The notes under the pieces are model-generated. The model was given only the letters and a program-made list of their open reading frames with translations. It searched no databases and was not told where the DNA came from. From NCBI GenBank assembly GCA_046758505.1, contig JBHIAH010000062.1, forward strand, positions 1-15,083: DNA of 15,083 nt. The letters run 5' to 3'. The position numbers were made by a program, and so were the translations under genes. The stretch's first letter is position 1. Every line of letters starts with the position of its first letter. This DNA comes from Candidatus Methylomirabilales bacterium (lineage in GTDB: Bacteria; Methylomirabilota; Methylomirabilia; Methylomirabilales; CSP1-5). Of the stretch, positions 33 to 15,083 are shown piece after piece.

Positions 33-51
33 AAAATGTACTCTGACCCCC
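33..51. repeat. Possible REP-like motif AAAATGTACTCTGACCCC(C), of the type found beside RAYT/IS200-like tyrosine transposases
   Basis: The motif was recognised from memory of GGGGTCAGAGTACATTT-type REP sequences. Frame 1 reads ...VGHPRKCTLTP, resembling the GRPRK tails of such transposases. There is only one copy in the window. Confidence 0.3.
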
Positions 52-131
52 TATTTTTTGGGAACGTTTACTCCGTTGGCCCGCCGGGCGGGCGATCTTG
101 GTCGTTAGGGTGGACTTGGAGGAATCTGAAT

Positions 132-773
132 ATGAGCGCCATTAAGCGCGCGTTATTGATTGTATCAATGCTGGCCTTTCCCTTGACGTCGAGCGCCGAA
201 ACCCAACAGCTCTTCAACGGCAAAGATCTAACCGGATGGAAGCACGTGGGCTCCGGCCGCTTTGTGGTCGAGGGTGGTCTGCTCCATCCAGTAGGAGGGG
301 TGGGACTTCTCTGGTTCGATGGAGGGAAAGTGGGCGACGCGGTTGTGCGCGTCGTCTACAAGGTGAAAACGCAGACGGATAATAGCGGCGTGTTCACTCG
401 AATCCCGGATCCACCGGAGGACCCCTGGATGCCGGTCGACAAGGGTTTGGAAGTTCAGATCAACGATGGGGGGGAATCTGGATACTACCGCACCGGCTCA
501 ATTTACACTTTCTCCAAGGTTCGGTCGCGACCCAACAAGGTGGGCGAGTGGAACACGATGGAGATAACTCTCGACGGTCCGCGCACGACGGTGCACATCA
601 ATGGAGTTTTCGTCACCGAATACACGGAGGGGGATCCGGTCCCGCCCAAGAAGCATGACTGGGATCCAAATCGTGGGCCGCGGCCCAATACTGGATATAT
701 TGGCGTTCAGAACCACCCGCATGGCAAGACAGTCTATTTCGAAGAGATCTCGATCCGGTCCATCGAGAAGTAG
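132..773 (+). CDS. Secreted DUF1080 / 3-keto-disaccharide hydrolase family protein
   Basis: ATG 132 follows GGAGG at 118-122. Signal peptide MSAIKRALLIVSMLAFPLTSSA. Family motifs LFNGKDLTGW, NSGVF, EVQI, TGSIY, GEWNTMEI, INGV and GYIGVQNH. Confidence 0.9.
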   Translation: MSAIKRALLIVSMLAFPLTSSAETQQLFNGKDLTGWKHVGSGRFVVEGGLLHPVGGVGLLWFDGGKVGDAVVRVVYKVKTQTDNSGVFTRIPDPPEDPWMPVDKGLEVQINDGGESGYYRTGSIYTFSKVRSRPNKVGEWNTMEITLDGPRTTVHINGVFVTEYTEGDPVPPKKHDWDPNRGPRPNTGYIGVQNHPHGKTVYFEEISIRSIEK

Positions 774-1059: not shown

Positions 1060-1088
1060 TTGACAGGCCTAGAGCGGGGAGGTATGGT
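1060..1088 (+). promoter_or_regulatory. Sigma70-type promoter of the regulator-oxidoreductase operon
   Basis: TTGACA (1060-1065), a 17-bp spacer, then TATGGT (1083-1088), with an AT-rich stretch upstream. Confidence 0.75.
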
Positions 1089-1095
1089 CTGACCA
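1085..1095. promoter_or_regulatory. FadR-subfamily (LldR/GlcC/PdhR-type) operator TGGTCTGACCA
   Basis: The palindrome TGGTC-T-GACCA overlaps the -10 box directly upstream of a FadR-type gene. A further half-site CAGACCAGT lies at 1105-1113. Confidence 0.8.
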
Positions 1096-1131: not shown

Positions 1132-1872
1132 ATGGACCTCAAAGAGGTGAAGAAAACAAGAGTTTACCAGGATATCGTCGCCCAGGTCAAGGACCTGATC
1201 GCCGATGGAAAATTGCGGCCGGGGGATCAGCTCCCCTCTGAGCGGGAGCTCTCGGAGATGTTCAAGGTGAGCCGCGCCTCGGTTCGGGAGGCGATTCGTG
1301 CCCTGGAGTCCTTGGGATTCATCGAGATCAGGCAGGGGGAGGGGACGTACATCGCCTCGAGCGTCGAGACGCTCCTCGCCTCTGTCACCTCCACGCTCCT
1401 GCAGGAGGCGGATCTTCTCATGCAGGTCTTCGAGGCGAGAAAGATCCTGGAACCCGCCATCGCTGCCCTGGCAGCAGAACGGGCGACCGCCGAGGAGGTC
1501 GCCGAACTCGAGGAAATCCTGAAGGAACAGGCCCAGGAGATCGCCCAGGCTGAGACGGGGGTTGAGGCCGACACGCGCTTTCACTCCGCGCTCGCCGAAG
1601 CCGCCAAGAACGAGGTCCTCCTCCGGCTGAACGAGGCCATTGTTGACCATCTCCGGGAGACCCGAGAGCGCTCCCTGCACACCGAGGGGCGACCCCCCCG
1701 GTCCCTGGCCGGCCATCGGGAGATCCTGGGGGCCATCCGGGACAAAGACCCGGCGAACGCACGGGAGGCGATGCTCATCCATCTTGAGACCATCGAGCAC
1801 AATGTCCTGAAATCGCCGGCGCCACAGCGGAGACAGAACGCAGGCGACGGCGCCGGCAGCGCGACGGGATAA
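1132..1872 (+). CDS. GntR family, FadR subfamily transcriptional regulator (wHTH + FCD domain)
   Basis: wHTH region LRPGDQLPSERELSEMFKVSRASVREAIRALE..G.IEIRQGEGTY. FCD motifs EARKILE, DTRFH, HREILGAI and AM..HL. Confidence 0.95.
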   Translation: MDLKEVKKTRVYQDIVAQVKDLIADGKLRPGDQLPSERELSEMFKVSRASVREAIRALESLGFIEIRQGEGTYIASSVETLLASVTSTLLQEADLLMQVFEARKILEPAIAALAAERATAEEVAELEEILKEQAQEIAQAETGVEADTRFHSALAEAAKNEVLLRLNEAIVDHLRETRERSLHTEGRPPRSLAGHREILGAIRDKDPANAREAMLIHLETIEHNVLKSPAPQRRQNAGDGAGSATG

Positions 1873-1898: not shown

Positions 1899-3056
1899 AT
1901 GCATGGTTCGGTTGAAGTCGTTTACCGCGGGATCTTCCAGAAGACCCTGGGACAACGGATCACGCGTGGAGTCGTTCTCGCCGCCCGGAAGGAGGGCAAG
2001 GTCGGGATCTCCTTCGGGCGATACGGCGATTCCCCGGAACGGAACGGCATCCCGGCCAAAAGCTTTGCCGTGGTGGCGGACAATGAAGAGGAGCTGCAGG
2101 CCTATCTCGCCCGCTACGAACCCTCGGACAACGACATCACCGTCGCGGTCGACGATACGCTGTGCAAGGGGGTGGAATCCTGGGCCTGGTACGGGCTCCA
2201 GCCGATCAATAAGCTGACCCGGGCGGGCGGGACGGTCTTGACCACCTCCACGCAGTCTCCGGACGAGCTGCTCAAGGACTGCCACCGCAGGGAGACCGAG
2301 TGGAATCTCGCCGTATTGAAGGGGACTGCCAGCTTCTCCGGGCTCTGGGTCTATAAGGACGATCACACCGACGTCCGGGTCCTGGGGGCCATTGCCAAGC
2401 TTGCCCCCCACGTGGTCACAATCGAATCGGTCGAGGCAGCGATTCGGGACGAGTGGAAAGACGACCTGAAGGTCACCTCCGCCCGCAAGGCCTACGAGCG
2501 GGTCGAGGCCCGAAAAGTCCGACCCGATGAAGGGAATCCGGAGCACCCGTACGAGTTCCAGCTTCCCAAGTGGTGGGAGATGAAGGAAGCGGTGAGCATT
2601 CCGGGGATCCCGGTCAAGCAGGACGTGGAGGGTTGGGACGGGGGATACCGGCCGGGCCGCAATCCCACCTTCAAGAAGTTCGCCACACGGACCATGCGAC
2701 CGGTCGTCGATTTCGAGATCTGCACCAAGTGCACCCTCTGCTGGCTCCAGTGCCCCGACTCCTGCTTTGACGTCACCCCGACCGGCCACTACGACGCCAA
2801 TATGGAGGCCTGCTGCGGCTGTGGTGTCTGTGAGGCGGTCTGTCCGGTAACCAACTGCATCACCATGGTCAACGAGTCCGCCTTCGAGGACAATGCCAGC
2901 CAGTTCGCGATGTACGAAAAGGACAAGGGGGTGTATGACACCTGGCTCAAGGGCAAGATCCACGACAAGGTGGTGACAGACCGACACCACGGATTCCAGG
3001 TCCGGGGCAAATACGAAGAGGAGATCCGGGAGATCATCCAGGAGGTGACAAAATGA
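1899..3056 (+). CDS. Oxalate oxidoreductase-like 2-oxoacid:ferredoxin oxidoreductase, fused gamma-delta subunit (domain III + 2x[4Fe-4S])
   Basis: RBS AAGGAGG. N-terminal POR-gamma-like domain (AARKEGK...YGDSPER). Ferredoxin motifs CTKCTLCWLQCP and CCGCGVCEAVCP preceded by RTMRPVVD. ATGA overlap with the alpha gene. Confidence 0.88.
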   Translation: MHGSVEVVYRGIFQKTLGQRITRGVVLAARKEGKVGISFGRYGDSPERNGIPAKSFAVVADNEEELQAYLARYEPSDNDITVAVDDTLCKGVESWAWYGLQPINKLTRAGGTVLTTSTQSPDELLKDCHRRETEWNLAVLKGTASFSGLWVYKDDHTDVRVLGAIAKLAPHVVTIESVEAAIRDEWKDDLKVTSARKAYERVEARKVRPDEGNPEHPYEFQLPKWWEMKEAVSIPGIPVKQDVEGWDGGYRPGRNPTFKKFATRTMRPVVDFEICTKCTLCWLQCPDSCFDVTPTGHYDANMEACCGCGVCEAVCPVTNCITMVNESAFEDNASQFAMYEKDKGVYDTWLKGKIHDKVVTDRHHGFQVRGKYEEEIREIIQEVTK

Positions 3057-4276
3057 GCGTAGCAACCAAAGCGGCGCCCGCCGCTGATCAGGAGATGCTG
3101 ATCAGCGGATGTGCGGCAATCGCCCAGGCCCTCCGCCTGGCGGACCTCGACGTCGTGACGGCCTATCCGATTCGGCCCTACGACACCGTGATGCAGGCCG
3201 TGGCAAAGCTGATCTCCAACGGCGAGCTGGACGCCGAGTACATCGTTGCCTCCAGCGAGCACGATCAGTTTGAGATCGTGAAGCACGCCTCCGCAGTCGG
3301 CGCCCGCGTCTTCTGCGGGTCGAGTGGGGTCGGATGGATGTACGCCATGGAGGCCCTCGCGGTCACCCCGGCGCTCCGGCTCCCGATGCTCGCCCTGGTT
3401 GGAAACCGTGCGCTGGACGATCCGGGCGCCTTCGGCTGCGAACACAACGATGCGATGTGTGTCCGAGACCTGGGGTGGATGCTCACCTGGGTCGATACGG
3501 CCCAGGAGGCCCTCGACACGGCGTTGATCGCCTATCGGGTGGCGGAGGATAAGCGAGTCTTCCTTCCCTGCGCCATCGGGGCGGACGGGGCGTTTCTCAC
3601 GCACTCGGAGGCGTTGGTCCAGGTCCCCAGCAAGGCACAGGTGGACCAGTTCCTGCCCAAGTACGATCGGGGGGACAAGCTCCTGCACCCCGATAATCCG
3701 ATCACCGTCGCCCCGCAGGTCAATGAAGACTGGGTGATGGAGATTCGCAAGCAGAACGACGAAGCGATGCGCCGGGCCCGGGGGGTGATTCAGGAGGCCT
3801 TCCGGGACTTCCACAAGATCTTCGGCCGGCAGGGGGGGAACCCCTTTGTGGAATCGTACATGGCCGAGGACGCCGATGTGATCCTCTTCGGCCAAGGGAC
3901 CCTCTCCTTGCCGGTAAAGGTGGGTGTCCGAAAGCTCCGGGAGCAGGGTCACAAGGTCGGGTTCGTACGCCTGCGCTGGCTGCGGCCTTTCCCCACCCCG
4001 GACGTTCAGGAGACGCTTGGGCGGGCGAAAGCCGTCGGGGTGATCGATCGCGATTACTCCTTCGGCGCACCCAACCACGGCGCAGTGCTGTACAACGAGG
4101 TGCGGTCTGCCCTGTACGACCTCCCGAAGCGGCCGCACGTGATGAGCTTCATCTGCGGCCTGGGCGGCCGCGAAGTCACCTTGGACAGCGTGACGGAGAT
4201 GAGCGAGATCCTGCTGAAGATTGCGAAGACCGGAAAAGTCGAGCAACCCAACTACTGGATTGGGGTGAGGGGGTAG
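3053..4276 (+). CDS. Oxalate oxidoreductase-like 2-oxoacid:ferredoxin oxidoreductase alpha subunit
   Basis: SGC..IA.A, YPIRPY (OOR-type Arg instead of PFOR YPITP), SEH with the TPP-activating Glu, GSSGVG, NR, RPFP and GLGGRE. Confidence 0.92.
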   Translation: MSVATKAAPAADQEMLISGCAAIAQALRLADLDVVTAYPIRPYDTVMQAVAKLISNGELDAEYIVASSEHDQFEIVKHASAVGARVFCGSSGVGWMYAMEALAVTPALRLPMLALVGNRALDDPGAFGCEHNDAMCVRDLGWMLTWVDTAQEALDTALIAYRVAEDKRVFLPCAIGADGAFLTHSEALVQVPSKAQVDQFLPKYDRGDKLLHPDNPITVAPQVNEDWVMEIRKQNDEAMRRARGVIQEAFRDFHKIFGRQGGNPFVESYMAEDADVILFGQGTLSLPVKVGVRKLREQGHKVGFVRLRWLRPFPTPDVQETLGRAKAVGVIDRDYSFGAPNHGAVLYNEVRSALYDLPKRPHVMSFICGLGGREVTLDSVTEMSEILLKIAKTGKVEQPNYWIGVRG

Positions 4277-4281
4277 CAACC

Positions 4282-5343
4282 ATGGCAAAGGAGTTGACCG
4301 TACTGCCAACCCAGACCCTTGAAGCCTTCAAGGGGGTCAAGAAGATTACCATCGAGGAGTACTTCACCTCGGGACACCGGACCTGTCAGGGCTGTGAGTC
4401 GGCCCTGGTGATGAAGCTCATGGCCAAGGCGGCCGGGCCCCGGACCGTCGTCCTGGGCTCCACCGGCTGCATGTACGTGGCCAACACCACGTACTACTCC
4501 ACGTCCTGGGTGGTCCCCTGGATGCACACCCAGCTCGGGGCGTCCGGGTCGGCTGCCGTCGGCACGGCGGCCGGGCTCAAGGTTCTCATGCGCAAGAACC
4601 GGATCAAGCAAGAACCGATCAACGTCATCGCCTTCTGCGGAGACGGGGGGGGTGCCGACATGGGGCTCAGCTCGATCTCGGCCGCCTTGACCTACCCCGA
4701 GTACAACTTTCTGATCCTGATGTACGATAACGAGTCGTACGCCAACACCGACATTCAGCTCTCCAGCATGACGCCGTATGGGGCCAACACGACCTTTTCG
4801 CCTCCAGGAAAGGCCCGACGGATCCTCCACAAGCGGTGGAAGAAGAACGTCGCCGGAATGCTGGCGGCCGGGCACCCCGAGTGTCGGTATGTCGCCACCG
4901 TGGACGCCTCGTACGCGCTCGAGATGATGAACCGGCTGCGGAAGGCCCTGACCATCGGCGGGCCGACATTCATCCACTCGCTGGACCCCTGCCCCAAAGG
5001 CTGGGACTACGACCCAATCCAGTCCCATGAACTCGGGGAGCTGGCCGTCGAGACGGGGGTCTGGCCCCTCTTCGAGGTCGAGGATGGAGTACTCAAGTTC
5101 TACGGTAAATCGAAGGGCATTGCTCAGGGGCGAAAGCGGAAGCCGGTCCGGGAGTATCTCTTGAAGCAGGGCCGATTCGCCCACTTCACCGACGAGGACA
5201 TCGAGTATTTCCAGAAGAAGGTGGACCTCATGTGGGAGCGGTGGCTCGTTCCCGGCGCCATCTGCGTCGAGATGGGTGACGATATCCGGAAGCACCTCGC
5301 CCGCGCGGAGCAAGAGGTCACCGCGGCCGAAGCGAAACAGTAA
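4282..5343 (+). CDS. Oxalate oxidoreductase-like 2-oxoacid:ferredoxin oxidoreductase beta subunit (TPP and proximal [4Fe-4S] binding)
   Basis: GHRTCQGC, TGCMYVANT, the GDGG...YDNESYANT TPP/Mg motif, TPYGANTTF and PCPKGW. Confidence 0.92.
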   Translation: MAKELTVLPTQTLEAFKGVKKITIEEYFTSGHRTCQGCESALVMKLMAKAAGPRTVVLGSTGCMYVANTTYYSTSWVVPWMHTQLGASGSAAVGTAAGLKVLMRKNRIKQEPINVIAFCGDGGGADMGLSSISAALTYPEYNFLILMYDNESYANTDIQLSSMTPYGANTTFSPPGKARRILHKRWKKNVAGMLAAGHPECRYVATVDASYALEMMNRLRKALTIGGPTFIHSLDPCPKGWDYDPIQSHELGELAVETGVWPLFEVEDGVLKFYGKSKGIAQGRKRKPVREYLLKQGRFAHFTDEDIEYFQKKVDLMWERWLVPGAICVEMGDDIRKHLARAEQEVTAAEAKQ

Positions 5344-5690: not shown

Positions 5691-6695
5691 ATGTCTAAGA
5701 AGGGTCGGTGGACATCCCTGGTCGTCGTCGGATTGCTCCTGATCTTCTTGGGGCCGGGGACTGTCCTGCTCACGGACACCGCCGCCGAGGCGGCCTGGCA
5801 GCCCAAGAAGCCGATTACGTTCGTCATCATGGCCGGCAAAGGGGGCGGTGCCGATCGGATCGCTCGGCTCATGCAGAAGATCGTGCAAAAGCATAAATGG
5901 TCCCCGCAACCCCTCATCCCGGTCAACAAGCCGGGTGGCGCAGGCGCCGAGGCGCTCCGGTACCTCAAGGACCATAAAGGTGACCCGTACGTTATCCTGG
6001 TCACGCTCAACAGCTTCTTCACCACCCCCCTGCGCGCCAATTTGGGCCTGAGCTACCGGGATTTTACGCCGATCGCCCGGATGGCCATGGACACGTTTAT
6101 CCTCTGGGTCAATTCAAAGTCACCGATCAAGAACGTGGATCAGTACGTCAAGGCGGTGAAGGCGGCGGGCGGTAAGTGGAAGATGGGCGGGACCGGCAAG
6201 GGGCAGGAAGATTCGCTCGTCACCGGCCTGCTCGAGGATGCCTACGGCATCAAAACCACCTATGTCCCCTTCAAGGGTGGCGGCAAGGTTGCGAAAGAGC
6301 TGATCGGGGGACACGTCGATTCCACCGTCAACAACCCGTCAGAGCAGATCTCCTGGTACGAGGCCGGGCGCTCTCGGCCACTGGCCGCCTTCACCCCAAA
6401 TCGGCTGCCCCAGTTTCCGGACGTGCCGACCTTCCGAGAGCTGGGCAAGGACCTCGTCTACTACATGCAGCGGAGCATTAACGCGCCTGGCGGAATCCCG
6501 GCCGAGGCGCGGGAGTGGTATGCGAACCTGTTCACCAAGCTCTCGAAGTCCGAGGAGTGGCAGACCTACTGCAAGAAGAAGGCGCTCCACTGCACGGGGA
6601 AGCTGGGGTTTTTGACCGGCGACAAACTGGGTAAGTTCTTCGCCTCGGAAGAGGCCAAGCACAAGAGGCTCCTCAAGGCGATGGGAGAGATCTAG
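5691..6695 (+). CDS. tctC: Tripartite tricarboxylate transporter substrate-binding protein (TctC/Bug family)
   Basis: RBS AAAGGAGG before ATG 5691. Signal peptide ending AEA-A. Motifs WQPKKPITFVI.AG.GGGAD..AR, VNKPGGAG, DFTPIA, YVPFKGGG, GGHVD and PDVPTFRELG. Confidence 0.93.
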   Translation: MSKKGRWTSLVVVGLLLIFLGPGTVLLTDTAAEAAWQPKKPITFVIMAGKGGGADRIARLMQKIVQKHKWSPQPLIPVNKPGGAGAEALRYLKDHKGDPYVILVTLNSFFTTPLRANLGLSYRDFTPIARMAMDTFILWVNSKSPIKNVDQYVKAVKAAGGKWKMGGTGKGQEDSLVTGLLEDAYGIKTTYVPFKGGGKVAKELIGGHVDSTVNNPSEQISWYEAGRSRPLAAFTPNRLPQFPDVPTFRELGKDLVYYMQRSINAPGGIPAEAREWYANLFTKLSKSEEWQTYCKKKALHCTGKLGFLTGDKLGKFFASEEAKHKRLLKAMGEI

Positions 6696-6698
6696 CCG

Positions 6699-7184
6699 AT
6701 GCGCCGCGCGGAAGTCACCTGTGCCCTGGGGTTGGTGGCGTTAGCCGTCATCTTTGCCTGGTACGCGCGGGAGCTGCCGATCGGCTGGGTGCCTGGGGCA
6801 GGCCCGGGGGGTGGCTTCTTTCCCTTCTGGCTCTCGGTCATCATGGGTGCGGTTGCGGTTGCGGTGGGGGTGCAGGGCTTCATGCGGGGCTCTGCACCCC
6901 GCCACGCCGCCAAGCGCTTCTTCGTGGAAGGGGGTCTCCGGCAGGTCTTCCTGGTTGCTATCCCCGGCCTCGTAATGGTCGCCCTGATCGACATCATCAG
7001 CACGTACGTGGCGGCCATCATCTTCCTGTTGTTTTACACGCGCTGCATCGGCAAACACCCCTGGCGGACCTCGTTCCTGGTAGCCATCGTGGTCCCCGTG
7101 GGGATCTTCTTGCTCTTTGAGAAGTTCTTGCTCATTCCACTGCCAAAGGGCTACCTCGACAAACTGTATTATATCTTTTACTAG
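6699..7184 (+). CDS. tctB: Tripartite tricarboxylate transporter small membrane subunit
   Basis: Several TM segments, GPGGGFFPFW and a C-terminal FEKFLLIPLPKG. Lies between tctC and tctA. Confidence 0.9.
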   Translation: MRRAEVTCALGLVALAVIFAWYARELPIGWVPGAGPGGGFFPFWLSVIMGAVAVAVGVQGFMRGSAPRHAAKRFFVEGGLRQVFLVAIPGLVMVALIDIISTYVAAIIFLLFYTRCIGKHPWRTSFLVAIVVPVGIFLLFEKFLLIPLPKGYLDKLYYIFY

Positions 7185-7287
7185 TGCCGTTCCAACGTGA
7201 TAAGCCGAATGTGAGCGACCTGCCTTGTTGCAAGCGTGGTGAACGAGTACAGCAAGAAAGTTAGCACAAATCCTTGGAACGGCACTA
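7182..7287. mobile_element. Non-autonomous MITE (about 102 bp plus TA duplication), probably derived from the IS630 family
   Basis: Perfect 15-bp inverted repeat CTAGTGCCGTTCCAA (7181-7195) / TTGGAACGGCACTAG (7274-7288). The interior is visibly more AT-rich than the flanking genes. The TA-flanked ...CACTAG ends are typical of IS630 elements. Confidence 0.65.
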
Positions 7288-7335
7288 GCAGAGGGGAAGA
7301 GGACGCCAAGCACCGACACACGAGGACGGGCCACA

Positions 7336-7365
7336 GAGAGGGGCGGGCCGACGCCGCCCCTTTTT
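7336..7365 (+). terminator. Intrinsic terminator-like hairpin between tctB and tctA
   Basis: GAGAGGGGCGG-GCCGACG-CCGCCCC followed by TTTTT. Confidence 0.55.
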
Positions 7366-7378
7366 CGTGAGAGGTAGT

Positions 7379-8920
7379 ATGGAACTTTTCGGCAATCTCC
7401 TGTACGGCTTCAGCATCGCGCTGACCCCCCTGAACTTCATCATGGCGATCCTCGGCGTCGTCCTGGGAACCGCAATCGGCGCCATGCCCGGTCTCGGGTC
7501 CGTCAACGGCGTCGCGATCCTTATCCCGATCACCTTCGCCGTCCCCCCAACCGCGGGGATCATCTTCCTGTCCGCCATCTACTATGGCGCCATGTACGGG
7601 GGCGCCATCAGCTCGATCACCCTGAACATCCCGGGCGCCTCCACGGCCGTCGCAACCACCTTTGACGGCTACCCCATGGCCAAGAAGGGGCGCGCCGCCC
7701 AGGCGCTGGTGGGGGCCGCGGTCAGTTCCTTCATCGGTGGTACCGTTTCGATCATCCTCTTTACCCTCTTCGCGCCCCCGCTCGCCGAGTTTGCCCTGAA
7801 GTTCGGCCCCGCAGAGACCTTCACGCTCATGCTCCTCGCCTACGCCACGTTCGCCGGTCTGGGGGGGGGTAACCCGCTCAAGACGATCGTCGCCACCCTG
7901 ATGGGCCTCATCCTGAGCACCGTCGGCCTGGACATCGTGAGCGGCCGCCCCCGCATGATCTTTGGGGACATCGCCGGCTTCTACCACGGAATCAATTTCC
8001 TGGTCCTCGCCATCGGGCTGTACGGGATCGGCGAGATCCTCTTCACGGCAGAGGAAAGACTGGTCGCCGGCGAGCGATTGCAGGCAAAGGTCCGGCTGCG
8101 GGATATCCTTTCCACCATCAAAGAGATGGCCCGGTACAAGCGGGCCTTCGGAATCGGCTCGCTCCTCGGGTTCTTCGTCGGCATGCTCCCGGCGGCGGGA
8201 GCCACGCCCGCCTCATTCATGAGTTACAGTGTGGTAAAGCGCTTTTCCAAACACCCCGAAGCGTTCGGGACCGGAACGATCGAAGGGGTCATTGCGCCCG
8301 AGACTGCCAACAACGCGGCGAGCACCGGGGCCATGCTCCCGATGCTCACCCTCGGCGTCCCCGGTTCGCCAACGACCGCCGTCATGCTGGGCGCCCTGGT
8401 GGTGTGGGGCCTGCTTCCGGGTCCGATGCTCTTCATTGAGCACCGCGAGTTCGTGTGGGGACTGATCGCCAGTCTCTATATCGCCAACGTCCTCGCGGTG
8501 TTGATCAACCTGTTCGCCATTCCGCTCTTCACCCTGATCCTGTGGCTCCCCTTTACCATCCTGGCACCGCTGATCATCGTCGTCTGCGCGGTGGGGGGAT
8601 ACGCGCCGACCTATAGCGTCTTCGACATGTGGCTCGCCTTCATCTTCGGGCTGGCCGGCTATGTCTTCCGAAAGCTCGACTACCCGCTCGCCCCCATGGT
8701 CCTCGCCCTGGTCCTCGGCCCCGGTACCGAGGTCTCCCTGCGCCAGAGCCTCATCATGTCCCACGGCTCCATCAGCATCTTCTTCGGCTTCGAAGGGGGG
8801 GTGTTCACCCATCCGATCGCCGCGGCCCTCATGTGGACCAGCGTGACTCTGTACGCCCTCCCCGTCGTCGGAGCGTTGATCCGCCTCTTCCGGCGGCGCG
8901 TCGAACTGGCAAAGGCCTAG
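7379..8920 (+). CDS. tctA: Tripartite tricarboxylate transporter large membrane subunit
   Basis: TctA motifs GAMPGLG, YYGAMYGGAISSI..NIPG, DGYPMAKKGRA, APETANNAA, LTLGVPGS and PGPMLF. Highly hydrophobic. GAGAGG precedes ATG 7379. Confidence 0.95.
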   Translation: MELFGNLLYGFSIALTPLNFIMAILGVVLGTAIGAMPGLGSVNGVAILIPITFAVPPTAGIIFLSAIYYGAMYGGAISSITLNIPGASTAVATTFDGYPMAKKGRAAQALVGAAVSSFIGGTVSIILFTLFAPPLAEFALKFGPAETFTLMLLAYATFAGLGGGNPLKTIVATLMGLILSTVGLDIVSGRPRMIFGDIAGFYHGINFLVLAIGLYGIGEILFTAEERLVAGERLQAKVRLRDILSTIKEMARYKRAFGIGSLLGFFVGMLPAAGATPASFMSYSVVKRFSKHPEAFGTGTIEGVIAPETANNAASTGAMLPMLTLGVPGSPTTAVMLGALVVWGLLPGPMLFIEHREFVWGLIASLYIANVLAVLINLFAIPLFTLILWLPFTILAPLIIVVCAVGGYAPTYSVFDMWLAFIFGLAGYVFRKLDYPLAPMVLALVLGPGTEVSLRQSLIMSHGSISIFFGFEGGVFTHPIAAALMWTSVTLYALPVVGALIRLFRRRVELAKA

Positions 8921-8971
8921 CCGGATGCTTTCCGCACCGAGAGGGGTGCGGGCACACGTGTGAGGAGTTTC

Positions 8972-9787
8972 ATGCCAATCGTCGCCATGACAAAAGAGAT
9001 GTGGAGCCTCGGCACCTCCATCGGGCAGGAGGTCGCCCGGCAGCTCGGCTACGAGTTCATCCGGCAAGACATCATCCGGGAGGCGGCGCGGGAGTACCGC
9101 ACGCTGGAAGAAAAGCTCGTCGAGACCCTGGAAGAGAAACCGGGATTTTTCGAGATGCTGAGCGAGACGGCCCGGCGGCACCACATCTTCGTGGCCGCCG
9201 AGGTGTATGAATTTGCGCTGCGGGAGCGGGTGGTGATCATGGGACGGTGGTCCACCCAACTCCTCAGGGGGGTGGATCACGCGGTCCGGATCCGGGTCTG
9301 CGCCCCGATCGACATCCGGGTTCGCCGCCTGATGGAGCGCCTTGGTGTCGGGGAGGCAGAGGCTCGCCGACTGATCCGCCGTTCCGACGAAGGGGTAGCC
9401 AGCCGGATGCACCAGTTCTTCGACGTAGAGTGGGCCGATCCGCTCCTGTATGACCTCAGCATCAATACCGGCAAGGTCTCTGTCACCACGGCGGCGGCCC
9501 AGGTGAATGTGCTGCTCGAGGCCCCCGAGTTTCAGTCAACCGAAGCCTCGGTGAAACAGCTGCAGAACCTCGCCCTGGCCGCAAAGGTCAAAGCCACGCT
9601 GAAGTCCCACCGGGAAACAGCCCGTCTCGATGTGGATGCAGTCGGAAGCGATGGCGAGGTGACCCTTCGAGGAACCGTTCCGGAAATCCTCGACCGCGAT
9701 GAAGCCGAGCGGATCGCCCTGGCAACTCCCGGAGTGCGTGCCCTGAAGAACGAGCTGATCGCGGTCGAAGAACACCGGCGCCTGTGA
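8972..9787 (+). CDS. Cytidylate kinase-like family protein with C-terminal BON domain
   Basis: RBS GAGGAG before ATG 8972. N-terminal motifs IG..VA.QLGY, VIMGR, RIRVCAP...RV.R and DPLLYDLSINT. C-terminal BON-like region GEVTLRGTV.....AERIA...PGV..LKNEL. Confidence 0.85.
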   Translation: MPIVAMTKEMWSLGTSIGQEVARQLGYEFIRQDIIREAAREYRTLEEKLVETLEEKPGFFEMLSETARRHHIFVAAEVYEFALRERVVIMGRWSTQLLRGVDHAVRIRVCAPIDIRVRRLMERLGVGEAEARRLIRRSDEGVASRMHQFFDVEWADPLLYDLSINTGKVSVTTAAAQVNVLLEAPEFQSTEASVKQLQNLALAAKVKATLKSHRETARLDVDAVGSDGEVTLRGTVPEILDRDEAERIALATPGVRALKNELIAVEEHRRL

Positions 9788-9851: not shown

Positions 9852-11387
9852 TTATCGCGCTCGCTCAAGCCCCTTGAGATGCTGGCGAACCCACTCCGCG
9901 TCTTCCCCATCCGGGGCCAGCTCAAGGTACCGGCGGTACGCGCGCACGGCCGCCTGCACTTGCCCCCGCCCCTCGTAGATCTCTCCCAGAGCGCGCTGCG
10001 GCTCGGCCAGCTTCGGCCCGTGCGTGATCGCTTTCCGATACGCCGCCTCGGCCGCTGACAGGTCCCCCATCCCGACCAGGACCCGCCCCCACCATGTATA
10101 GGCGATCGCCAGATCGGGGGGAGGGGGAATGTCGATGTCGAGTCCGCCTCCCGTGTCCGGCCCACCCTCGGTAACCTCCCGTGGAGCTTTCTCCAGCAGG
10201 TGGACGCTTCTTTGGAGCGCCGATGCGGCCTCGGGGTACCTCCCCACGGCCGCGTACGCCCGACCGAGGCGATAGTATACTTCGGGATGTGGCGTCACGA
10301 ATTTCGCCGCGCGCGCGTAAGCCGCCACCGCCCGGGGATAGTCGCCCCGGCGCCGCGCGATCTCGCCGAGAAAAAAGTGCGCCCGTCCCTGCTCCGGCTC
10401 AATGCGAATCACCCGCCGAAATGACTTCGCGGCAGCCTCATATTGTTGGAGCCTGAGGCGGACCACGCCGAGCAGGTATGCGATGATCGAACTCTCTGGA
10501 TCGAACTCGGCAGCCCGCGCATAGGCCGCGCTGGCGCGCTGAAGCTCTCCCCGTTCATGATGAATCAAACCGAGGTTCCGCCACGCATCGGCGAACCCCG
10601 GCTGGATCTCGACCGCCGACTGTAACGCGGCGGCAGCCCCATCCAGATCTCCCCGCGCCTTGAGGAGGTTCCCCAGGTAGAACCGGCTCTGGGCATCCCG
10701 CGGATCCAGCTCCGCCGCGCTCCGGTACGCCTCGATGGCCAGGGGAAACTCCCCCCGCCGGATATGAAGCGAGGCAAGCCGTCGATGGGCCAGGGGGAGT
10801 TGGGGATTCACCTGGAGGGCTTTCTCGTAGGACGCGACCGCCAGGTCTAACTTCCCCTGGAGGGTATAGAGATACCCGATAAACAAATAGGGCTTCGCTC
10901 TTTCGGGACCAAGATCGCTGGCTGCCTGAAAGGCTGCAAGGGCCTCCTCGATCCTGCGCTCTTTTGCCAATAGATATGCCCGCCCGTAATGCCCCCAGTA
11001 GTAGCGCGGGTCCAACGCGACGGCCCGATCAAACTCGGCAAGTTGGGAAGCCGGGTCCTCCAGGAGCCGACCGTACAGATAGTGAAATACCGGGCTGTCG
11101 GGCCGCCGGTCCAGCCATGCGCGATACTCTTGGCGAAGTTGCTCCTGCTCCCCACGGGCGGCCAACAGAATGGCCCGCCGCCGATGGGCATCGGTATACT
11201 CCGGTCGCAATCGGATCGCCTCCTGGTAGCTTCGCAGGGCCTTCTCGACCTGTCCCGCCTCCTCCTGCCCCCGGCCACGCTGAAACGCCTGCGCTGCGCG
11301 CACCCGCCTATCCGGCGCATCGCACGCCACCAGGGCCACCATGAGGCTAAGCACCGCGACTATTCGCCAGGGGGCCGTGTCTTGCAC
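9852..11387 (-). CDS. Tetratricopeptide-repeat lipoprotein
   Basis: GTG start with GGAG upstream. Hydrophobic signal with lipobox LVA-C. More than 10 TPR units, for example A...YEKALQVNP and AWRNLGLI...GE...A..AY.RA...DP. Confidence 0.85.
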   Translation of the reverse strand: MQDTAPWRIVAVLSLMVALVACDAPDRRVRAAQAFQRGRGQEEAGQVEKALRSYQEAIRLRPEYTDAHRRRAILLAARGEQEQLRQEYRAWLDRRPDSPVFHYLYGRLLEDPASQLAEFDRAVALDPRYYWGHYGRAYLLAKERRIEEALAAFQAASDLGPERAKPYLFIGYLYTLQGKLDLAVASYEKALQVNPQLPLAHRRLASLHIRRGEFPLAIEAYRSAAELDPRDAQSRFYLGNLLKARGDLDGAAAALQSAVEIQPGFADAWRNLGLIHHERGELQRASAAYARAAEFDPESSIIAYLLGVVRLRLQQYEAAAKSFRRVIRIEPEQGRAHFFLGEIARRRGDYPRAVAAYARAAKFVTPHPEVYYRLGRAYAAVGRYPEAASALQRSVHLLEKAPREVTEGGPDTGGGLDIDIPPPPDLAIAYTWWGRVLVGMGDLSAAEAAYRKAITHGPKLAEPQRALGEIYEGRGQVQAAVRAYRRYLELAPDGEDAEWVRQHLKGLERAR

Positions 11388-11598: not shown

Positions 11599-13260
11599 TC
11601 AGTATCCCAACGCCAGGCCGTCGCCCCGCGGATCGGCCGCTCCCTGCCGGACCCCGGTCTCGGGATCGATGAGGATCGCCTGCGCATGCCCCATGAGATC
11701 GTCCCAGGCCTCCACGACCCGGACCGGCTGCCCCCGACGTCTGAGCGCCTCCACCACGGACGGCGGGATCCGCGCCTCCAAGAGGAGATCGGTGCTCGTC
11801 ATCCCCCAGGTGCGGCCGTACAGCCAGCGCGGCGCTTCAACCGCTTCCTGGAGACCAAACCCAAAATCAACGATGCGGGTCACCAGGGCCGATTGCGTCT
11901 GGGGCTGGCCCTCGCCGCCCATGGTGCCGTACACCAGGAAGAGGCGATCGTCCTTGAGGAGGATTGCGGGGATCAGGGTGTGAAACGTTCGCTTCCGGGG
12001 CTGAAGACAGTTGACATGGGTCGGATCGAGCGAGAAAAAAGTCCCCCGATTCTGGAGGAGGACCCCCGTGTCCCCCGCCACGATCCCGGACCCGAAGTCG
12101 AAATAGATGCTCTGTAACATCGACACACCGTTCCCCGCGGCATCGACCGTGCCGATATAGACCGTATCCCCTTTCACCAGCCCGGGCTCGTAGCGTGCCA
12201 CCGCCCTGGCCATGTCGATCCGTCGGGCCCGATCCTGCGTGTACCGCGGGGAGAGGAGGCGATCCAGGGGAATCCGGCTACAGGCGGGATCGGTCACCCA
12301 CTGATCGCGGTCGGCGAAGGCCAGCTTCGTGGCCTCCACTTGCAGATGATAGTACTCCGTGGTCCCCTCTCCCACCCGTTCCAAATCGAAGTGGCTCAGA
12401 ATGCCCAGGATCATCAGGGCGGCCACCCCCTGGGTATTCGGCGGAAATCCATGCACCCCGTATCCGCGGTAATTCACCCGAATCGGCTCAACCCAATCGG
12501 AATGGTGGTTGTAGAAGTCCCGTTCCGTCAGGACGCCACCGTGCCTATCGAGGTACCGGACGATCCGCCGCGTGATGTCCCCCTCATAAAAGAAACGACC
12601 GCCCCCGTACGCAATGGTCTTGAGGGTGCGGGCGAGATCCGGCTGCTTCATGACCTCGCCCGGCCGATACGGTTGCCCATCGGGCTTGAGAAACGTGCGC
12701 CGGAACCCTTCCCATCGCTGGAGTCCCCGCAGGGGGTCGGCGGTCTCCCCGATGTCTCGGGCGGTCCACACCGCCTGGCTCGGGGTGACCGGGTATCCGG
12801 CCTCGGCGTATCCCACGGCCTCCTCAAAGAGGGAGGACCACAAAACGCGGGTCCCCAAGCTCCAGCGCCCGTACTCGTGGGCGGTCGCCCATCCATCCAC
12901 CGCCCCGGGCACCGTATTGGCCGCCAGGAACCCTCGGGGAGGGATGGCGTCCAAATTGCCCATCCGTTGGTACAGGTCGATCGTACATCGCTCTCCCGAT
13001 CGCCCCGACCCGTTCAGGGCGCGGACGGTTCGTGTCTTGGCATCGTAAATCAACCAGAAGTTGTCCCCGCCAAGACTGCACATGTGCGGATACACGACAG
13101 AGCAGACGGCTGCAGCCGCGATGGCGGCATCAACGGCGTTTCCCCCGGCCTGGAGGACCCGGAGGCCGGCGGCCGAGGCCAGGTAATGGGGGGTCGCCAC
13201 CATCCCCCGGGTGGCCAGGACGGTCGGTCGATGCGCAGTGGCACCTGCCGGAGGTTTCAT
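11599..13260 (-). CDS. Gamma-glutamyltransferase-family Ntn-hydrolase, HpxW (oxamate amidohydrolase)/YwrD-like
   Basis: GMVATPHYLAS..G...L..GGNAVDAAIA, VVYPHM.SLGGD, autoproteolysis site GD/TVY, QSIYFDFGSG, LQNRG..FSLDP, FHTLIP, MGGEGQPQTQ, PRWLYGRTWG and ADPRGDG. Start is either 13260 (GGAGG upstream) or 13278. Confidence 0.9.
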   Translation of the reverse strand: MKPPAGATAHRPTVLATRGMVATPHYLASAAGLRVLQAGGNAVDAAIAAAAVCSVVYPHMCSLGGDNFWLIYDAKTRTVRALNGSGRSGERCTIDLYQRMGNLDAIPPRGFLAANTVPGAVDGWATAHEYGRWSLGTRVLWSSLFEEAVGYAEAGYPVTPSQAVWTARDIGETADPLRGLQRWEGFRRTFLKPDGQPYRPGEVMKQPDLARTLKTIAYGGGRFFYEGDITRRIVRYLDRHGGVLTERDFYNHHSDWVEPIRVNYRGYGVHGFPPNTQGVAALMILGILSHFDLERVGEGTTEYYHLQVEATKLAFADRDQWVTDPACSRIPLDRLLSPRYTQDRARRIDMARAVARYEPGLVKGDTVYIGTVDAAGNGVSMLQSIYFDFGSGIVAGDTGVLLQNRGTFFSLDPTHVNCLQPRKRTFHTLIPAILLKDDRLFLVYGTMGGEGQPQTQSALVTRIVDFGFGLQEAVEAPRWLYGRTWGMTSTDLLLEARIPPSVVEALRRRGQPVRVVEAWDDLMGHAQAILIDPETGVRQGAADPRGDGLALGY

Positions 13261-13280
13261 CTCCCGTTCCCCCTCCATGA

Positions 13281-14606
13281 CTAATACCACCCCACCAGGC
13301 GGGGGAGCCAGAGGGCGATCTCGGGGAACATCAAGAGAATAGCCAAGCCGACGAGCTGCAACGCCACAAAGGGGACGATCCCTCGATAAATATGGCTGGT
13401 CCTCACTTCGGGAGGCGCGACACCTTTCAGGAAAAAGAGTGACCATCCGAAGGGAGGCGTCAGGAAGGAGGTCTGCAGGTTCATGCAGATCACGATGGAA
13501 AACCAGAGGAGGTCAATGCCCATCTTGTCCAGGACCGGTGTGATGATCGGCACCACGATGTAGGTAATCTCAATCCATTCCAGAAAGAACCCGAGGAAGA
13601 ACAGGAGGGCCATGATAAAGGCGATCACGCCCCACTTCCCACCCGGCATGCCGCCGAGGACGTCGTGGACCAGGATGTCCCCGTCCAGCCCGCGAAAGGC
13701 CAGGCCAAAGACCCGGGCCCCCACCACGATGATCATCACCAGACAGGTCAGCCGGGCAGTACGCCGATTGACCTCGCGAATTCGCTGCATCGTCAACCGG
13801 CCGTTCACGGCCGTGATCAGGATAGCCCCGAGGGCGCCCATAGATGCCGCCTCGGTCGGGGCGGCGATGCCGAAGATGATCGATCCGAGCACGGCCACGA
13901 TCAAAGCGCTCACAGGAAAAAGAACCTTCACGGCCCGGATGAACAGGTCTCGCCTGCTGATGCTTGCCCGCTCCTCCAAGGGGATCGCCGGAGCTATCTT
14001 CGGGTAGAGAAAGGATCCGATTGTAATCGCAACGACAAAAATGCCGGCCAGCATAAAGCCGGGAATAAAGGCGGCCACGAAGATGGCGCCCACCGACAGG
14101 CCGAGAATATCGGCCAACACGATGAGGACGAGGCTGGGTGGAATGATCTGGCCGAGGGTTCCCGAGGCACAGATGGTTCCCGTCGCCAGCTCCGGCAGAT
14201 ACCTCCGGCGAAGCATGCTGGGAAGCGATAAGAGGCCCATCGTCACCACCGTGGCCCCCACAATCCCCGTCGACGCCCCCAGCAAAGCTCCGACGACCAC
14301 GACCGAAATTGCGAGCCCCCCCCGCACCTCACCGAAAAGGAGTCCCATCGTCTCGAGCAGGTCCTCGGCCACGCCTGACACCTCGAGCATCACTCCCATG
14401 TAGACGAACAAGGGAATAGCCAGGAGAGTGTAATTGGCCATCACACCGTACACTCGGAGCGGCAACAGGTTGAACAGATCGAAACCGAATCCAAGCATGC
14501 CGAAGATCAAACCAACTGCCCCCAGGGTAAAGGCCACAGGATAGCCCAGCATCAACATGCCGAGGAGCCCCACGACCATCAGGACGGCCAGCGTTTCAAG
14601 CGGCAT
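13281..14606 (-). CDS. dctM: TRAP transporter large permease (FcbT3/TakP-associated type)
   Basis: GYPVAFTLG, LLAIPLF..MG..LE.SG.AEDL, GIVGATVV.MG..SLP.ML, GTLGQIIPPS, PTEAA and NLQTSFLTPPFG..LF.LKGVAP. The ATG at 14606 overlaps the end of dctQ. Confidence 0.95.
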   Translation of the reverse strand: MPLETLAVLMVVGLLGMLMLGYPVAFTLGAVGLIFGMLGFGFDLFNLLPLRVYGVMANYTLLAIPLFVYMGVMLEVSGVAEDLLETMGLLFGEVRGGLAISVVVVGALLGASTGIVGATVVTMGLLSLPSMLRRRYLPELATGTICASGTLGQIIPPSLVLIVLADILGLSVGAIFVAAFIPGFMLAGIFVVAITIGSFLYPKIAPAIPLEERASISRRDLFIRAVKVLFPVSALIVAVLGSIIFGIAAPTEAASMGALGAILITAVNGRLTMQRIREVNRRTARLTCLVMIIVVGARVFGLAFRGLDGDILVHDVLGGMPGGKWGVIAFIMALLFFLGFFLEWIEITYIVVPIITPVLDKMGIDLLWFSIVICMNLQTSFLTPPFGWSLFFLKGVAPPEVRTSHIYRGIVPFVALQLVGLAILLMFPEIALWLPRLVGWY

Positions 14607-15083
14607 GGGTCTTCTCCTCTCCTTCTGAAACTTCCTCGCCCTCGAGGCCGAGCAACCGACAGAGGCTATGGAGCGCCATCGAGACGCCCTGCAGTCCGAG
14701 GAGCGCAAACCCGATGGGCATTATGGCCTTCAGAATGTAGCGGGCCGGAAGTCCCCCGGGATCAGGCGACCCCTCCCCTGCCGCCCACGAGGCACCGATA
14801 AAGCTCCACGAGGTCCAGATGATGATGATACAGACCGGGATGAGGAAGAGGAGGGAACCGACAAAATCAACGTACGCCCTAGTCCTCGCCGAGAACCGCG
14901 AATAGAGGATATCCACCCGGACGTGTTCGTCATACACCAGCGTATAGGCCGCGGTGAGTAAAAAGAGCGGGCCGAAGAGATGCCACTCGAGCTCCTGCAT
15001 GGCAACCGAGCCCCTGTGGAACAGGTACCGGACGATCACATTCCACGCCACCACGAGGACCAACACCAATGCGATCCATGAGG
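14596..15083 (-). CDS. dctQ: TRAP transporter small permease (FcbT2 type), 5'-truncated by the window edge
   Basis: The frame is open to the window end. Motifs V..RY.F, QELEWHL, HVRVDILY, GEGSPDPGGLP, and G..LLGLQG.S. Confidence 0.92.
   Translation of the reverse strand, partial: SWIALVLVLVVAWNVIVRYLFHRGSVAMQELEWHLFGPLFLLTAAYTLVYDEHVRVDILYSRFSARTRAYVDFVGSLLFLIPVCIIIIWTSWSFIGASWAAGEGSPDPGGLPARYILKAIMPIGFALLGLQGVSMALHSLCRLLGLEGEEVSEGEEKTHAA

What the first reader, a model, noticed from the sequence alone, without database searches (positions are those of the whole stretch)
3164..3445. OOR-like alpha subunit keeps both active-site Arg residues but has Ala at the catalytic Asp position
Seen in the sequence: YPIRP (R41), E69 and NRALDDPGAFGCEH (R119, D123, A126, F127). 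From memory, M. thermoacetica OOR has YPIRP (R31), E59 and DRTLDPPGDFGEEH (R109, D116, F117), giving an ungapped +10 offset. Asp116, the switch-loop acid that contacts the oxalate-TPP adduct, therefore maps to Ala126 (codon 3428-3430), and a new Asp appears three residues earlier. Inference: this is a distinct OOR subfamily with either a relocated acid or another substrate such as oxamate, glyoxylate, pyruvate or mesoxalate.
Basis: partly seen in the sequence, partly recalled or inferred. Interest (0 to 1): 0.8.

Follow-up and report, generated by a model that had tools for sequence, protein, structure and literature searches.

The report
Oxalate oxidoreductase sister lacking switch aspartate
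These genes encode a thiamine- and iron-sulfur-dependent enzyme from an untested sister group of the Moorella oxalate oxidoreductase that has alanine where the known enzyme has its proposed catalytic aspartate, yet its gene neighbourhoods suggest it still oxidises oxalate to CO2.

Summary
Alpha aligns without gaps to Moorella OOR (5c4i_A): Arg41, Glu69, Arg119 and Phe127 are kept and Asp116 maps to Ala126. It is a clade signature: among Arg31-type alphas, 133 carry DDPGAF and 121 carry DPPGDF, as two sister clades. The window fails all three NCBIfam OOR cut-offs. Context favours oxalate over a new substrate. In related loci the same oxalate-CoA ligase–PanE–GntR cassette precedes either enzyme type, with GntRs up to 93% identical while the alphas share 43%. 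An oxalate/formate antiporter lies in 48 of 96 Ala-type loci. Only 5 of 69 Ala-type genomes hold an Asp-type enzyme, and 0 of 35 an Oxc. Candidate replacement acids are Asp123-alpha and Asp157-beta; neither could be placed structurally. Oxamate and glyoxylate remain rivals. Verdict: a new variant of OOR, probably oxalate to 2 CO2 without CoA (about 0.65), with no activity shown. The scan noted this clade before on other DNA.

The parts
1085..1095 (.). Palindrome TGGTCTGACCA, 36 nt before gntR; candidate FadR/GntR operator (consensus recalled)
   Evidence: Exact match; with one mismatch allowed the window count equals chance (3 vs mean 3.25). TGGTnnnACCA lies upstream of gntR in 7 of 82 Ala-type and 8 of 50 Asp-type loci, against 2 in-gene control hits.
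1132..1872 (+). GntR/FadR-family regulator (GntR + FCD domains) heading the operon
   Evidence: Pfam PF00392 and PF07729; a homologue lies in 84 of 96 Ala-type loci.
1899..3056 (+). Fused gamma-delta subunit (domain III plus a 2x[4Fe-4S] ferredoxin domain; Cys275/278/281/285 and 305/308/311/315)
   Evidence: Best PDB hit 5c4i_B; Foldseek ranks 1-8 are OOR chains; NF045790 87.5 bits vs cut-off 230; the Cys are invariant in 24 sequences.
3053..4276 (+). Alpha subunit (domains I-II) of an OOR-sister 2-oxoacid:ferredoxin oxidoreductase
   Evidence: 5c4i_A E 2.6e-109; Foldseek TM 0.85/0.88 to 5c4i_A; NF045791 416.1 vs cut-off 500.
3164..3184 (+). YPIRPYD: Arg41 (= OOR Arg31) kept; Asp44 replaces Thr
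   Evidence: D44 in 130 of 133 Ala-type, T in 120 of 120 Asp-type.
3404..3445 (+). Switch-loop motif NRALDDPGAFGCEH: R119 (= R109), D122 (= D112), new D123 (P113 in OOR), A126 (= D116), F127 (= F117)
4282..5343 (+). Beta subunit (domain VI: TPP diphosphate/Mg motif; proximal-cluster Cys35/38/63/237)
   Evidence: 5c4i_C E 3.6e-85; NF045792 347 vs cut-off 590.
4744..4752 (+). Beta N155-T156-D157: Asn143 kept, Gly145 replaced by a clade-invariant Asp (candidate replacement acid)
   Evidence: alpha-Ala pairs with beta-Asp in 87 operons and alpha-Asp with beta-Gly in 86; confounded by clade.
5691..8920 (+). TctC-TctB-TctA tripartite carboxylate transporter, candidate importer
   Evidence: Pfam. Window TctC is 46-49% identical to TctCs beside six Asp-type operons, against 29% for its best paralogue in its own genome.
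11599..13266 (-). GGT-family Ntn hydrolase resembling oxamate amidohydrolase HpxW; convergent and about 6 kb away, so its link to the operon is uncertain
   Evidence: Small-subunit best hit 5hft_B, 197.5 bits vs 144.4 next; 5HFT is HpxW (PMC12360370 passage); a 60% identical homologue follows beta on the same strand in L172.

Best explanation
The three genes encode an (alpha-beta-gamma/delta)2 TPP/[4Fe-4S] oxidoreductase that oxidises oxalate to 2 CO2 without CoA and passes the electrons through three clusters to ferredoxin: the OOR reaction in a sister clade with a rebuilt switch loop. SHOWN by sequence: subunit set, TPP and cluster motifs, both substrate arginines, Glu69, Phe127, Gln222, beta Asn155, and Ala at the Asp116 position. 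INFERRED: TctABC imports oxalate (OxlT does so in many relatives); GntR derepresses the operon; Arg41 and Arg119 bind the dicarboxylate; TPP adds and two decarboxylations follow. The acid or charge-switch role proposed for Asp116 is either taken by another clade-fixed acid (beta Asp157 or alpha Asp123 first) or is dispensable. Asp116 may be an innovation of the Moorella branch rather than something this clade lost.
For: Locus interchange: oxalate-CoA ligase–PanE–GntR precedes an Ala-type operon in L024, L048, L049, L058 and an Asp-type operon in L113, L118, L197. The ligase's best PDB hits are oxalate-CoA ligases (E 5e-123 vs 9e-75 for the best other ligase). 23 of 47 scored Asp-locus GntRs (50 found) are at least 80% identical to an Ala-locus GntR, while six such alphas share 42-43% across types. 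The L059 antiporter passes the OxlT equivalog cut-off, and OxlT lies in 48 of 96 Ala-type and 23 of 89 Asp-type loci. An Asp-type alpha was found in only 5 of 69 Ala-type genomes, and in 1 of the 15 with the ligase cassette. Oxc passed its cut-off in 0 of 35. Arg41 is confined to the two sister clades and two odd rows. No Thr/Ser-type alpha has Asp at position 126; Asn (34) and Ser (20) are commonest of 79.
Against: No activity data exist. The evidence for oxalate comes mostly from Acidobacteriota loci: the window's own genome has no OxlT, Oxc or Frc over cut-off and no close oxalate-CoA ligase. Both types co-occur in 7 loci and in 4 of 61 relatives, which fits different substrates. Amidases (FmdA 12, GGT 6), AGT (13) and malate synthase (9) lie beside Ala-type loci and beside 0 of 89 Asp-type loci, though the Asp-type sample is narrow and has shorter flanks. 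34 alpha and 29 beta columns are clade-fixed, so the Ala/Asp157 covariation is not independent evidence. Many Ala-type genomes keep two copies.
Confidence: 0.65

Rival explanations
1. Oxamate oxidoreductase: TPP attacks the amide carbon, which needs no protonation, so Asp116 is unnecessary. Beta Asp157 binds the amide NH2, and the products are CO2 plus carbamate (then CO2 and NH3).
For: FmdA-family amidases of two subtypes lie in 12 and GGT/HpxW-like genes in 6 of 96 Ala-type loci, in varying positions and orientations, and in 0 of 89 Asp-type loci. An HpxW-like gene is in the window. Both enzyme types co-occur in some genomes.
Against: An oxamate amidohydrolase directly behind beta (L172) would turn oxamate into oxalate first. 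The five FmdA N-termini inspected look exported (read by eye). The second arginine is kept. The regulator and OxlT are shared with Asp-type loci. The HpxW-like gene also occurs in relatives where no Ala-type alpha was found (G001, G016, G019, G023).
Confidence: 0.1
2. CoA-independent glyoxylate oxidoreductase (glyoxylate to formate + CO2), or a TPP enzyme that releases formate from oxalate, giving OxlT its counter-ion.
For: AGT in 13, malate synthase in 9 and glycolate oxidase in 1 of 96 Ala-type loci, none in Asp-type loci. OxlT is an oxalate/formate antiporter, and the OOR reaction makes no formate (established knowledge).
Against: The glyoxylate genes follow oxalate-CoA ligase and PanE as an assimilation branch (PanE-type oxalyl-CoA reductase is recalled). 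OxlT also flanks 23 of 89 Asp-type loci. Arg41 points to a dicarboxylate. All three clusters are intact.
Confidence: 0.12
3. An ordinary CoA-dependent PFOR or broad OFOR, as databases label it, or an enzyme for another small dicarboxylate such as mesoxalate.
For: Source names read 'pyruvate ferredoxin oxidoreductase'. Gamma keeps PERNG, which is nearer the PorC motif (recalled) than Asp-type PDRxN is. Beta has extra invariant basic residues R180, R185, K187.
Against: YPIRP, not YPITP. PorA cut-off not met (337.5 vs 550). Gamma has YRGIFQK where PFORs have a Gly-rich loop (recalled). The genome has separate OFORs on C1, C5 and C40. No tartronate or mesoxalate genes were recognised among the conserved neighbours annotated.
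Confidence: 0.1

Closest known systems
Oxalate oxidoreductase of Moorella thermoacetica (EC 1.2.7.10 recalled; PDB 5C4I, 5EXD, 5EXE; NCBIfam NF045790-NF045792)
   Same: Three chains with fused gamma-delta, gene order gamma/delta-alpha-beta (Moorella order recalled), YPIRP Arg31, Glu59, Arg109, Asp112, Phe117, Gln211, beta Asn143, all cluster cysteines, no Gly-rich loop in domain III. Best hit by sequence and by fold for the chains tested.
   Different: Asp116 to Ala, Pro113 to Asp, Asp108 to Asn, Thr34 to Asp, beta Gly145 to Asp, beta CAGCGP to CQGCES. The gamma plug-loop region is rebuilt (SFSGLWVYKDDH) and gamma-delta is about 70 aa longer. Alpha identity is about 45%, and all three equivalog cut-offs are missed.
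Uncharacterised Asp-type (DPPGDF) OORs of Acidobacteriota and Methylomirabilota, e.g. L065, L069, L162
   Same: Sister clade; same GntR, OxlT, TctABC and ligase/PanE neighbours.
   Different: They keep Asp116 and beta Gly145, and the two alphas scanned pass NF045791 (582, 587 bits). Most have a separate gamma and a GltD-like NAD(P)H subunit (74 of 89 loci vs 0 of 96).
Four-subunit PFOR PorABCD (M. acetivorans, PDB 9BT4; NF040682) and phenylglyoxylate dehydrogenase PadG (NF045764)
   Same: Same fold and domain set.
   Different: 9BT4 has YPITP, Asn at the Asp116 position and beta NTG; both need CoA (PMC12337175 passage: all OFORs but OOR). Cut-offs not met.

Membership tests
Oxalate oxidoreductase (Moorella type) | YPIRP motif, Arg31-alpha | tested here: met
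   R41; named unique to MtOOR in PMC5020499.
Oxalate oxidoreductase (Moorella type) | Arg109, Glu59, Phe117, Gln211 (alpha) and Asn143 (beta); roles other than Arg109 recalled | tested here: met
   R119, E69, F127, Q222 and beta N155 align.
Oxalate oxidoreductase (Moorella type) | Asp116-alpha of the bait-and-switch mechanism | tested here: not met
   Ala126; Ala in 133 of 133 clade members.
Oxalate oxidoreductase (Moorella type) | NCBIfam equivalog cut-offs NF045790/91/92 | tested here: not met
   87.5/230, 416.1/500, 347/590. The beta cut-off is narrow: two Asp-type betas also miss it (436, 441), while their alphas pass.
Oxalate oxidoreductase (Moorella type) | Three subunits, TPP motif, three [4Fe-4S] clusters | tested here: met
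Oxalate oxidoreductase (Moorella type) | Plug-loop acid Glu154-gamma (role recalled) | tested here: inconclusive
   Two alignments put D154 opposite it, at low confidence. D155 and W150, not D154, are invariant. Model pLDDT is under 50 at 146-153.
Oxalate oxidoreductase (Moorella type) | CoA-independent oxidation of oxalate to 2 CO2 | not testable with these tools
   Only gene-context support.
Pyruvate:ferredoxin oxidoreductase (PorABCD) | YPITP Thr and NF040682 cut-off | tested here: not met
   Arg at that position; 337.5 vs 550 bits.
Phenylglyoxylate dehydrogenase (Pad) | NF045764 and NF045766 cut-offs | tested here: not met
   252.8/700 and 139.3/700.

The most novel reading that the evidence does not exclude
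The Ala clade is not an isoenzyme but a second CoA-independent TPP chemistry. It oxidises the amide oxamate to carbamate, or releases formate from oxalate or glyoxylate to drive the OxlT antiporter, using beta Asp157 as a new active-site acid. This would explain the recruited amidases and the genomes that keep both enzyme types.
Probability: 0.2. Interest if true: 0.78.

Novelty: new variant of a known kind. Interest (0 to 1): 0.55.

Why it matters
The bait-and-switch model of OOR rests on Asp116. A large natural clade that seems to do the same job with Ala there is a ready test of whether that acid is needed, relocated or peculiar to one branch. The clade occurs in MAGs labelled Acidobacteriota, Methylomirabilota, Armatimonadota, Chloroflexota, Nitrospinota and others, is named 'pyruvate ferredoxin oxidoreductase' in databases, and sat in genomes without Oxc (0 of 35). 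If it oxidises oxalate, surveys based on oxc/frc or on the OOR HMM cut-offs miss a route of oxalate breakdown in soil and groundwater. It would also add a second family of CoA-free TPP enzymes at the CO2/oxalate couple.

Tried and rejected
Sequencing error or local decay: rejected, the motif is in 120 of 120 proteins and 80 of 80 loci. Register shift putting D123 on Asp116: not supported, the alignment is ungapped with D122, P124, G125 and F127 as anchors, though a 3D shift of the loop cannot be excluded. The AlphaFold monomer left residues 120-138 under pLDDT 50, so it says nothing about the loop. The alpha-beta complex model scored 0.84 against a best control of 0.00; that mark was reached by 116 of 157 solved and 2 of 215 mismatched pairs, runs agreed in at least 93% of contacts, and partner pLDDT was at least 85. 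A like complex is solved, so the pass shows likeness only. Its interface list names neither alpha 118-131 nor beta 155-157, which is no evidence either way; an alpha2-beta2 job exceeds the size limit. Alpha126/beta157 covariation was rejected as independent evidence (63 clade-fixed columns). FmdA and GGT as obligatory partners: rejected, they are patchy. No RNA holder was listed for the operon. The careful tree did not finish; the quick tree is cited. Gibson 2015, both Gibson 2016 papers and Pierce 2017 were not held. Paper searches listed no description of this clade; subscription papers and their supplements, notably the OFOR structural phylogeny, could contain one. A place look-up in earlier findings returned nothing.

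Full report
OBSERVATION. The finding lies in ORF 3053-4276 (+, 407 aa). YPIRP starts at nt 3164, the loop motif ends at 3445, and codon 126 is GCC at 3428-3430. The best solved relative is Moorella thermoacetica oxalate oxidoreductase (OOR) alpha, 5c4i_A, E 2.6e-109. The alignment is ungapped through the loop at +10, so R31, E59, R109, D112, F117 and Q211 map to R41, E69, R119, D122, F127 and Q222; P113 maps to D123 and D116 to A126.

ANATOMY. The alpha gene sits in a run of GntR/FCD regulator (1132-1872), fused gamma-delta (1899-3056), alpha, and beta (4282-5343), followed by TctCBA. Gamma-delta and beta also hit OOR chains best; Foldseek on models of alpha and gamma-delta agrees. TPP and cluster motifs are intact. 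All three OOR equivalog cut-offs are missed (87.5/230, 416.1/500, 347/590), as are those of PorA and PadG. A palindrome TGGTCTGACCA lies at 1085-1095. Close relatives are labelled Methylomirabilales/NC10. The genome (96.8% complete) has one YPIRP operon and three other OFOR alphas.

A CLADE, NOT AN ACCIDENT. All 120 listed closest proteins and all 80 genome loci carry NRALDDPGAFG. The search found 5115 proteins at E <= 1e-60, but that total mixes clades. I pooled 387 proteins from three searches with the window; 347 of 388 covered both motifs. Of those with Arg at position 41, 133 have D123/A126, 121 have P123/D126 and 3 are otherwise. A quick ML tree of 95 alphas gives Ala-type (24 rows, SH-aLRT 100) and Asp-type (20 rows, 100) as sister groups inside an Arg clade (99). 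P0127, with DDPGNF, branches next to the Ala type at support 94. The Moorella sequence itself was not in the tree; it shares the Asp-type motif. No Thr/Ser-type alpha has Asp at 126, and Asn (34) and Ser (20) are commonest of 79. I infer that Asp116 may have been gained on the Moorella branch.

CANDIDATE REPLACEMENT ACIDS. D123 is invariant (133 of 133) and D44 nearly so (130 of 133). Following a lead from earlier finding e1-5227405, I paired alpha and beta in 179 loci: alpha-Ala goes with beta NTD in 87 operons and alpha-Asp with NTG in 86; 12 alphas had no paired beta, and four loci were duplicates. Beta D157 lies two residues after N155, the OOR Asn143 equivalent. But 34 alpha and 29 beta columns are clade-fixed, so this covariation is not independent evidence. 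The monomer model leaves 120-138 under pLDDT 50, and the alpha-beta model's interface list names neither region. Which acid, if any, replaces Asp116 is open. In gamma, D154 aligns weakly with OOR Glu154 (role recalled).

SUBSTRATE: EVIDENCE FOR OXALATE. I counted neighbours in 96 Ala-type loci (window included), 89 Asp-type and 7 mixed, after dropping five duplicates, one locus with neither motif and one unpublished locus. OxlT at 300 bits or more lies in 48 Ala-type and 23 Asp-type loci; the L059 copy passes the oxalate/formate antiporter equivalog cut-off. An acyl-CoA ligase whose best PDB hits are oxalate-CoA ligases lies in 14 Ala-type, 1 mixed and 3 Asp-type loci as a strong hit. The strongest point is interchange: ligase–PanE–GntR precedes an Ala-type operon in L024, L048, L049 and L058, and an Asp-type operon in L113, L118 and L197. 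23 of 47 scored Asp-locus GntRs (50 found) are at least 80% identical to an Ala-locus GntR, up to 93%, while the six alphas compared share 42-43% across types.

The Ala type usually stands alone. An Asp-type alpha was found in 5 of 69 genomes searched (69 of the 80 loci; one genome, G091, is unpublished), and in 1 of the 15 with the ligase cassette. Of the extra 40-46% hits, the 16 I read were Ala-type; five were assigned by identity alone. Oxc passed its cut-off in 0 of 35 of these genomes, all 15 included. These are incomplete MAGs, so this means not found. For the window itself, TctC is 46-49% identical to TctCs beside six Asp-type operons, against 29% for its own paralogue. A convergent GGT-family gene resembles HpxW oxamate amidohydrolase in its small subunit, and its homologue follows beta directly in L172, which fits oxamate being hydrolysed to oxalate first.

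EVIDENCE AGAINST. Nothing is measured. The window's genome has no OxlT, Oxc or Frc over cut-off, and its best ligase match is 35% identical. Both types co-occur in 7 loci and in 4 of 61 relatives (G018, G026, G053, G057; that tally includes unpublished G007 and G021). FmdA amidases (12), GGT (6), AGT (13) and malate synthase (9) flank Ala-type loci and none of the 89 Asp-type loci, although that sample is mostly one lineage with 6-kb flanks. Co-occurrence could instead reflect electron acceptors: a GltD-like subunit accompanies 74 of 89 Asp-type and 0 of 96 Ala-type loci. The HpxW-like gene also occurs in relatives without a detected Ala-type alpha.

MECHANISM. Most likely (0.65): oxalate enters by TctABC, GntR releases the operon, Arg41 and Arg119 bind it, TPP adds, two CO2 leave, and two electrons pass through three clusters to ferredoxin, without CoA. 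The parts are shown by sequence; substrate, CoA independence and the replacement acid are inferred. Rivals are glyoxylate oxidation or formate release (0.12), oxamate oxidation (0.10), and a CoA-dependent or other-substrate enzyme (0.10).

LITERATURE. I saw passages of PMC5020499 (YPIRP unique to MtOOR; Arg31 and Asp116 in bait-and-switch; CoA not required), PMC12337175 (OOR the only CoA-free OFOR), PMC12360370 (5HFT is HpxW) and PMC13768988 (domain III binds CoA). Passages of PMC10699278, PMC12873857, PMC10176493 and PMC13340500 added nothing on this clade. Of the four primary OOR papers I saw nothing, so I cannot say whether Asp116 was ever mutated. Searches listed no description of the Ala clade; subscription papers are not covered.

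VERDICT. It works like OOR but is not filed as a Moorella-type member, since Asp116 and the cut-offs are not met: a new variant of a known kind. This scan noted the clade before in five other windows; those notes are unchecked and are not counted as support. Interest 0.55.

Noticed in passing
L065:8001-15526, L069:723-10268; also L099, L130, L140, L144, L148: Ala-type and Asp-type operons lie within a few kb of each other in 7 loci.
   Followed up: partly
L154:1202-3421, L126:4155-5984, L162:10847-13039: Asp-type operons usually carry a CDC48-like AAA ATPase (55 of 89; name from my reading) and a GltD-like NAD(P)H subunit (74 of 89), suggesting an NAD(P)-coupled OOR form.
   Followed up: partly
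   Followed up: partly
L179-L190, L193-L195, L198: Many Acidobacteriota genomes hold a second Ala-type operon, mostly GntR-led with OxlT; some lie beside malate synthase, isocitrate lyase, glycolate oxidase or formate dehydrogenase genes (names read from N-termini).
   Followed up: partly
L016, L018, L028, L032, L035: Two subtypes of apparently exported FmdA/AmdA amidases sit on either side of Ala-type operons; substrate unknown.
   Followed up: partly
window 8960-9787 (+): Cytidylate-kinase-like plus BON domain protein after tctA; beside 8 of 96 Ala-type and 0 of 89 Asp-type loci.
   Followed up: no
window 13281-15083 (-) and 9852-11387 (-): TRAP transporter DctQ/DctM upstream of the HpxW-like hydrolase (a possible oxamate uptake module), then a TPR protein.
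   Followed up: no
window 36-773 (+): 3-keto-disaccharide hydrolase (PF06439) upstream of gntR; homologue seen in only a few close relatives.
   Followed up: no
L161:12366-18453: In G053 the Ala-type operon is followed by two OxlT genes and a CoA-transferase-like gene (last name from my reading).
   Followed up: no
window alpha D122 (3416-3418): Asp112 of OOR is kept in 133 of 133 Ala-type and 118 of 120 Asp-type alphas but is not among the common residues of Thr-type enzymes: a shared Arg31-clade acid worth mutating.
   Followed up: partly
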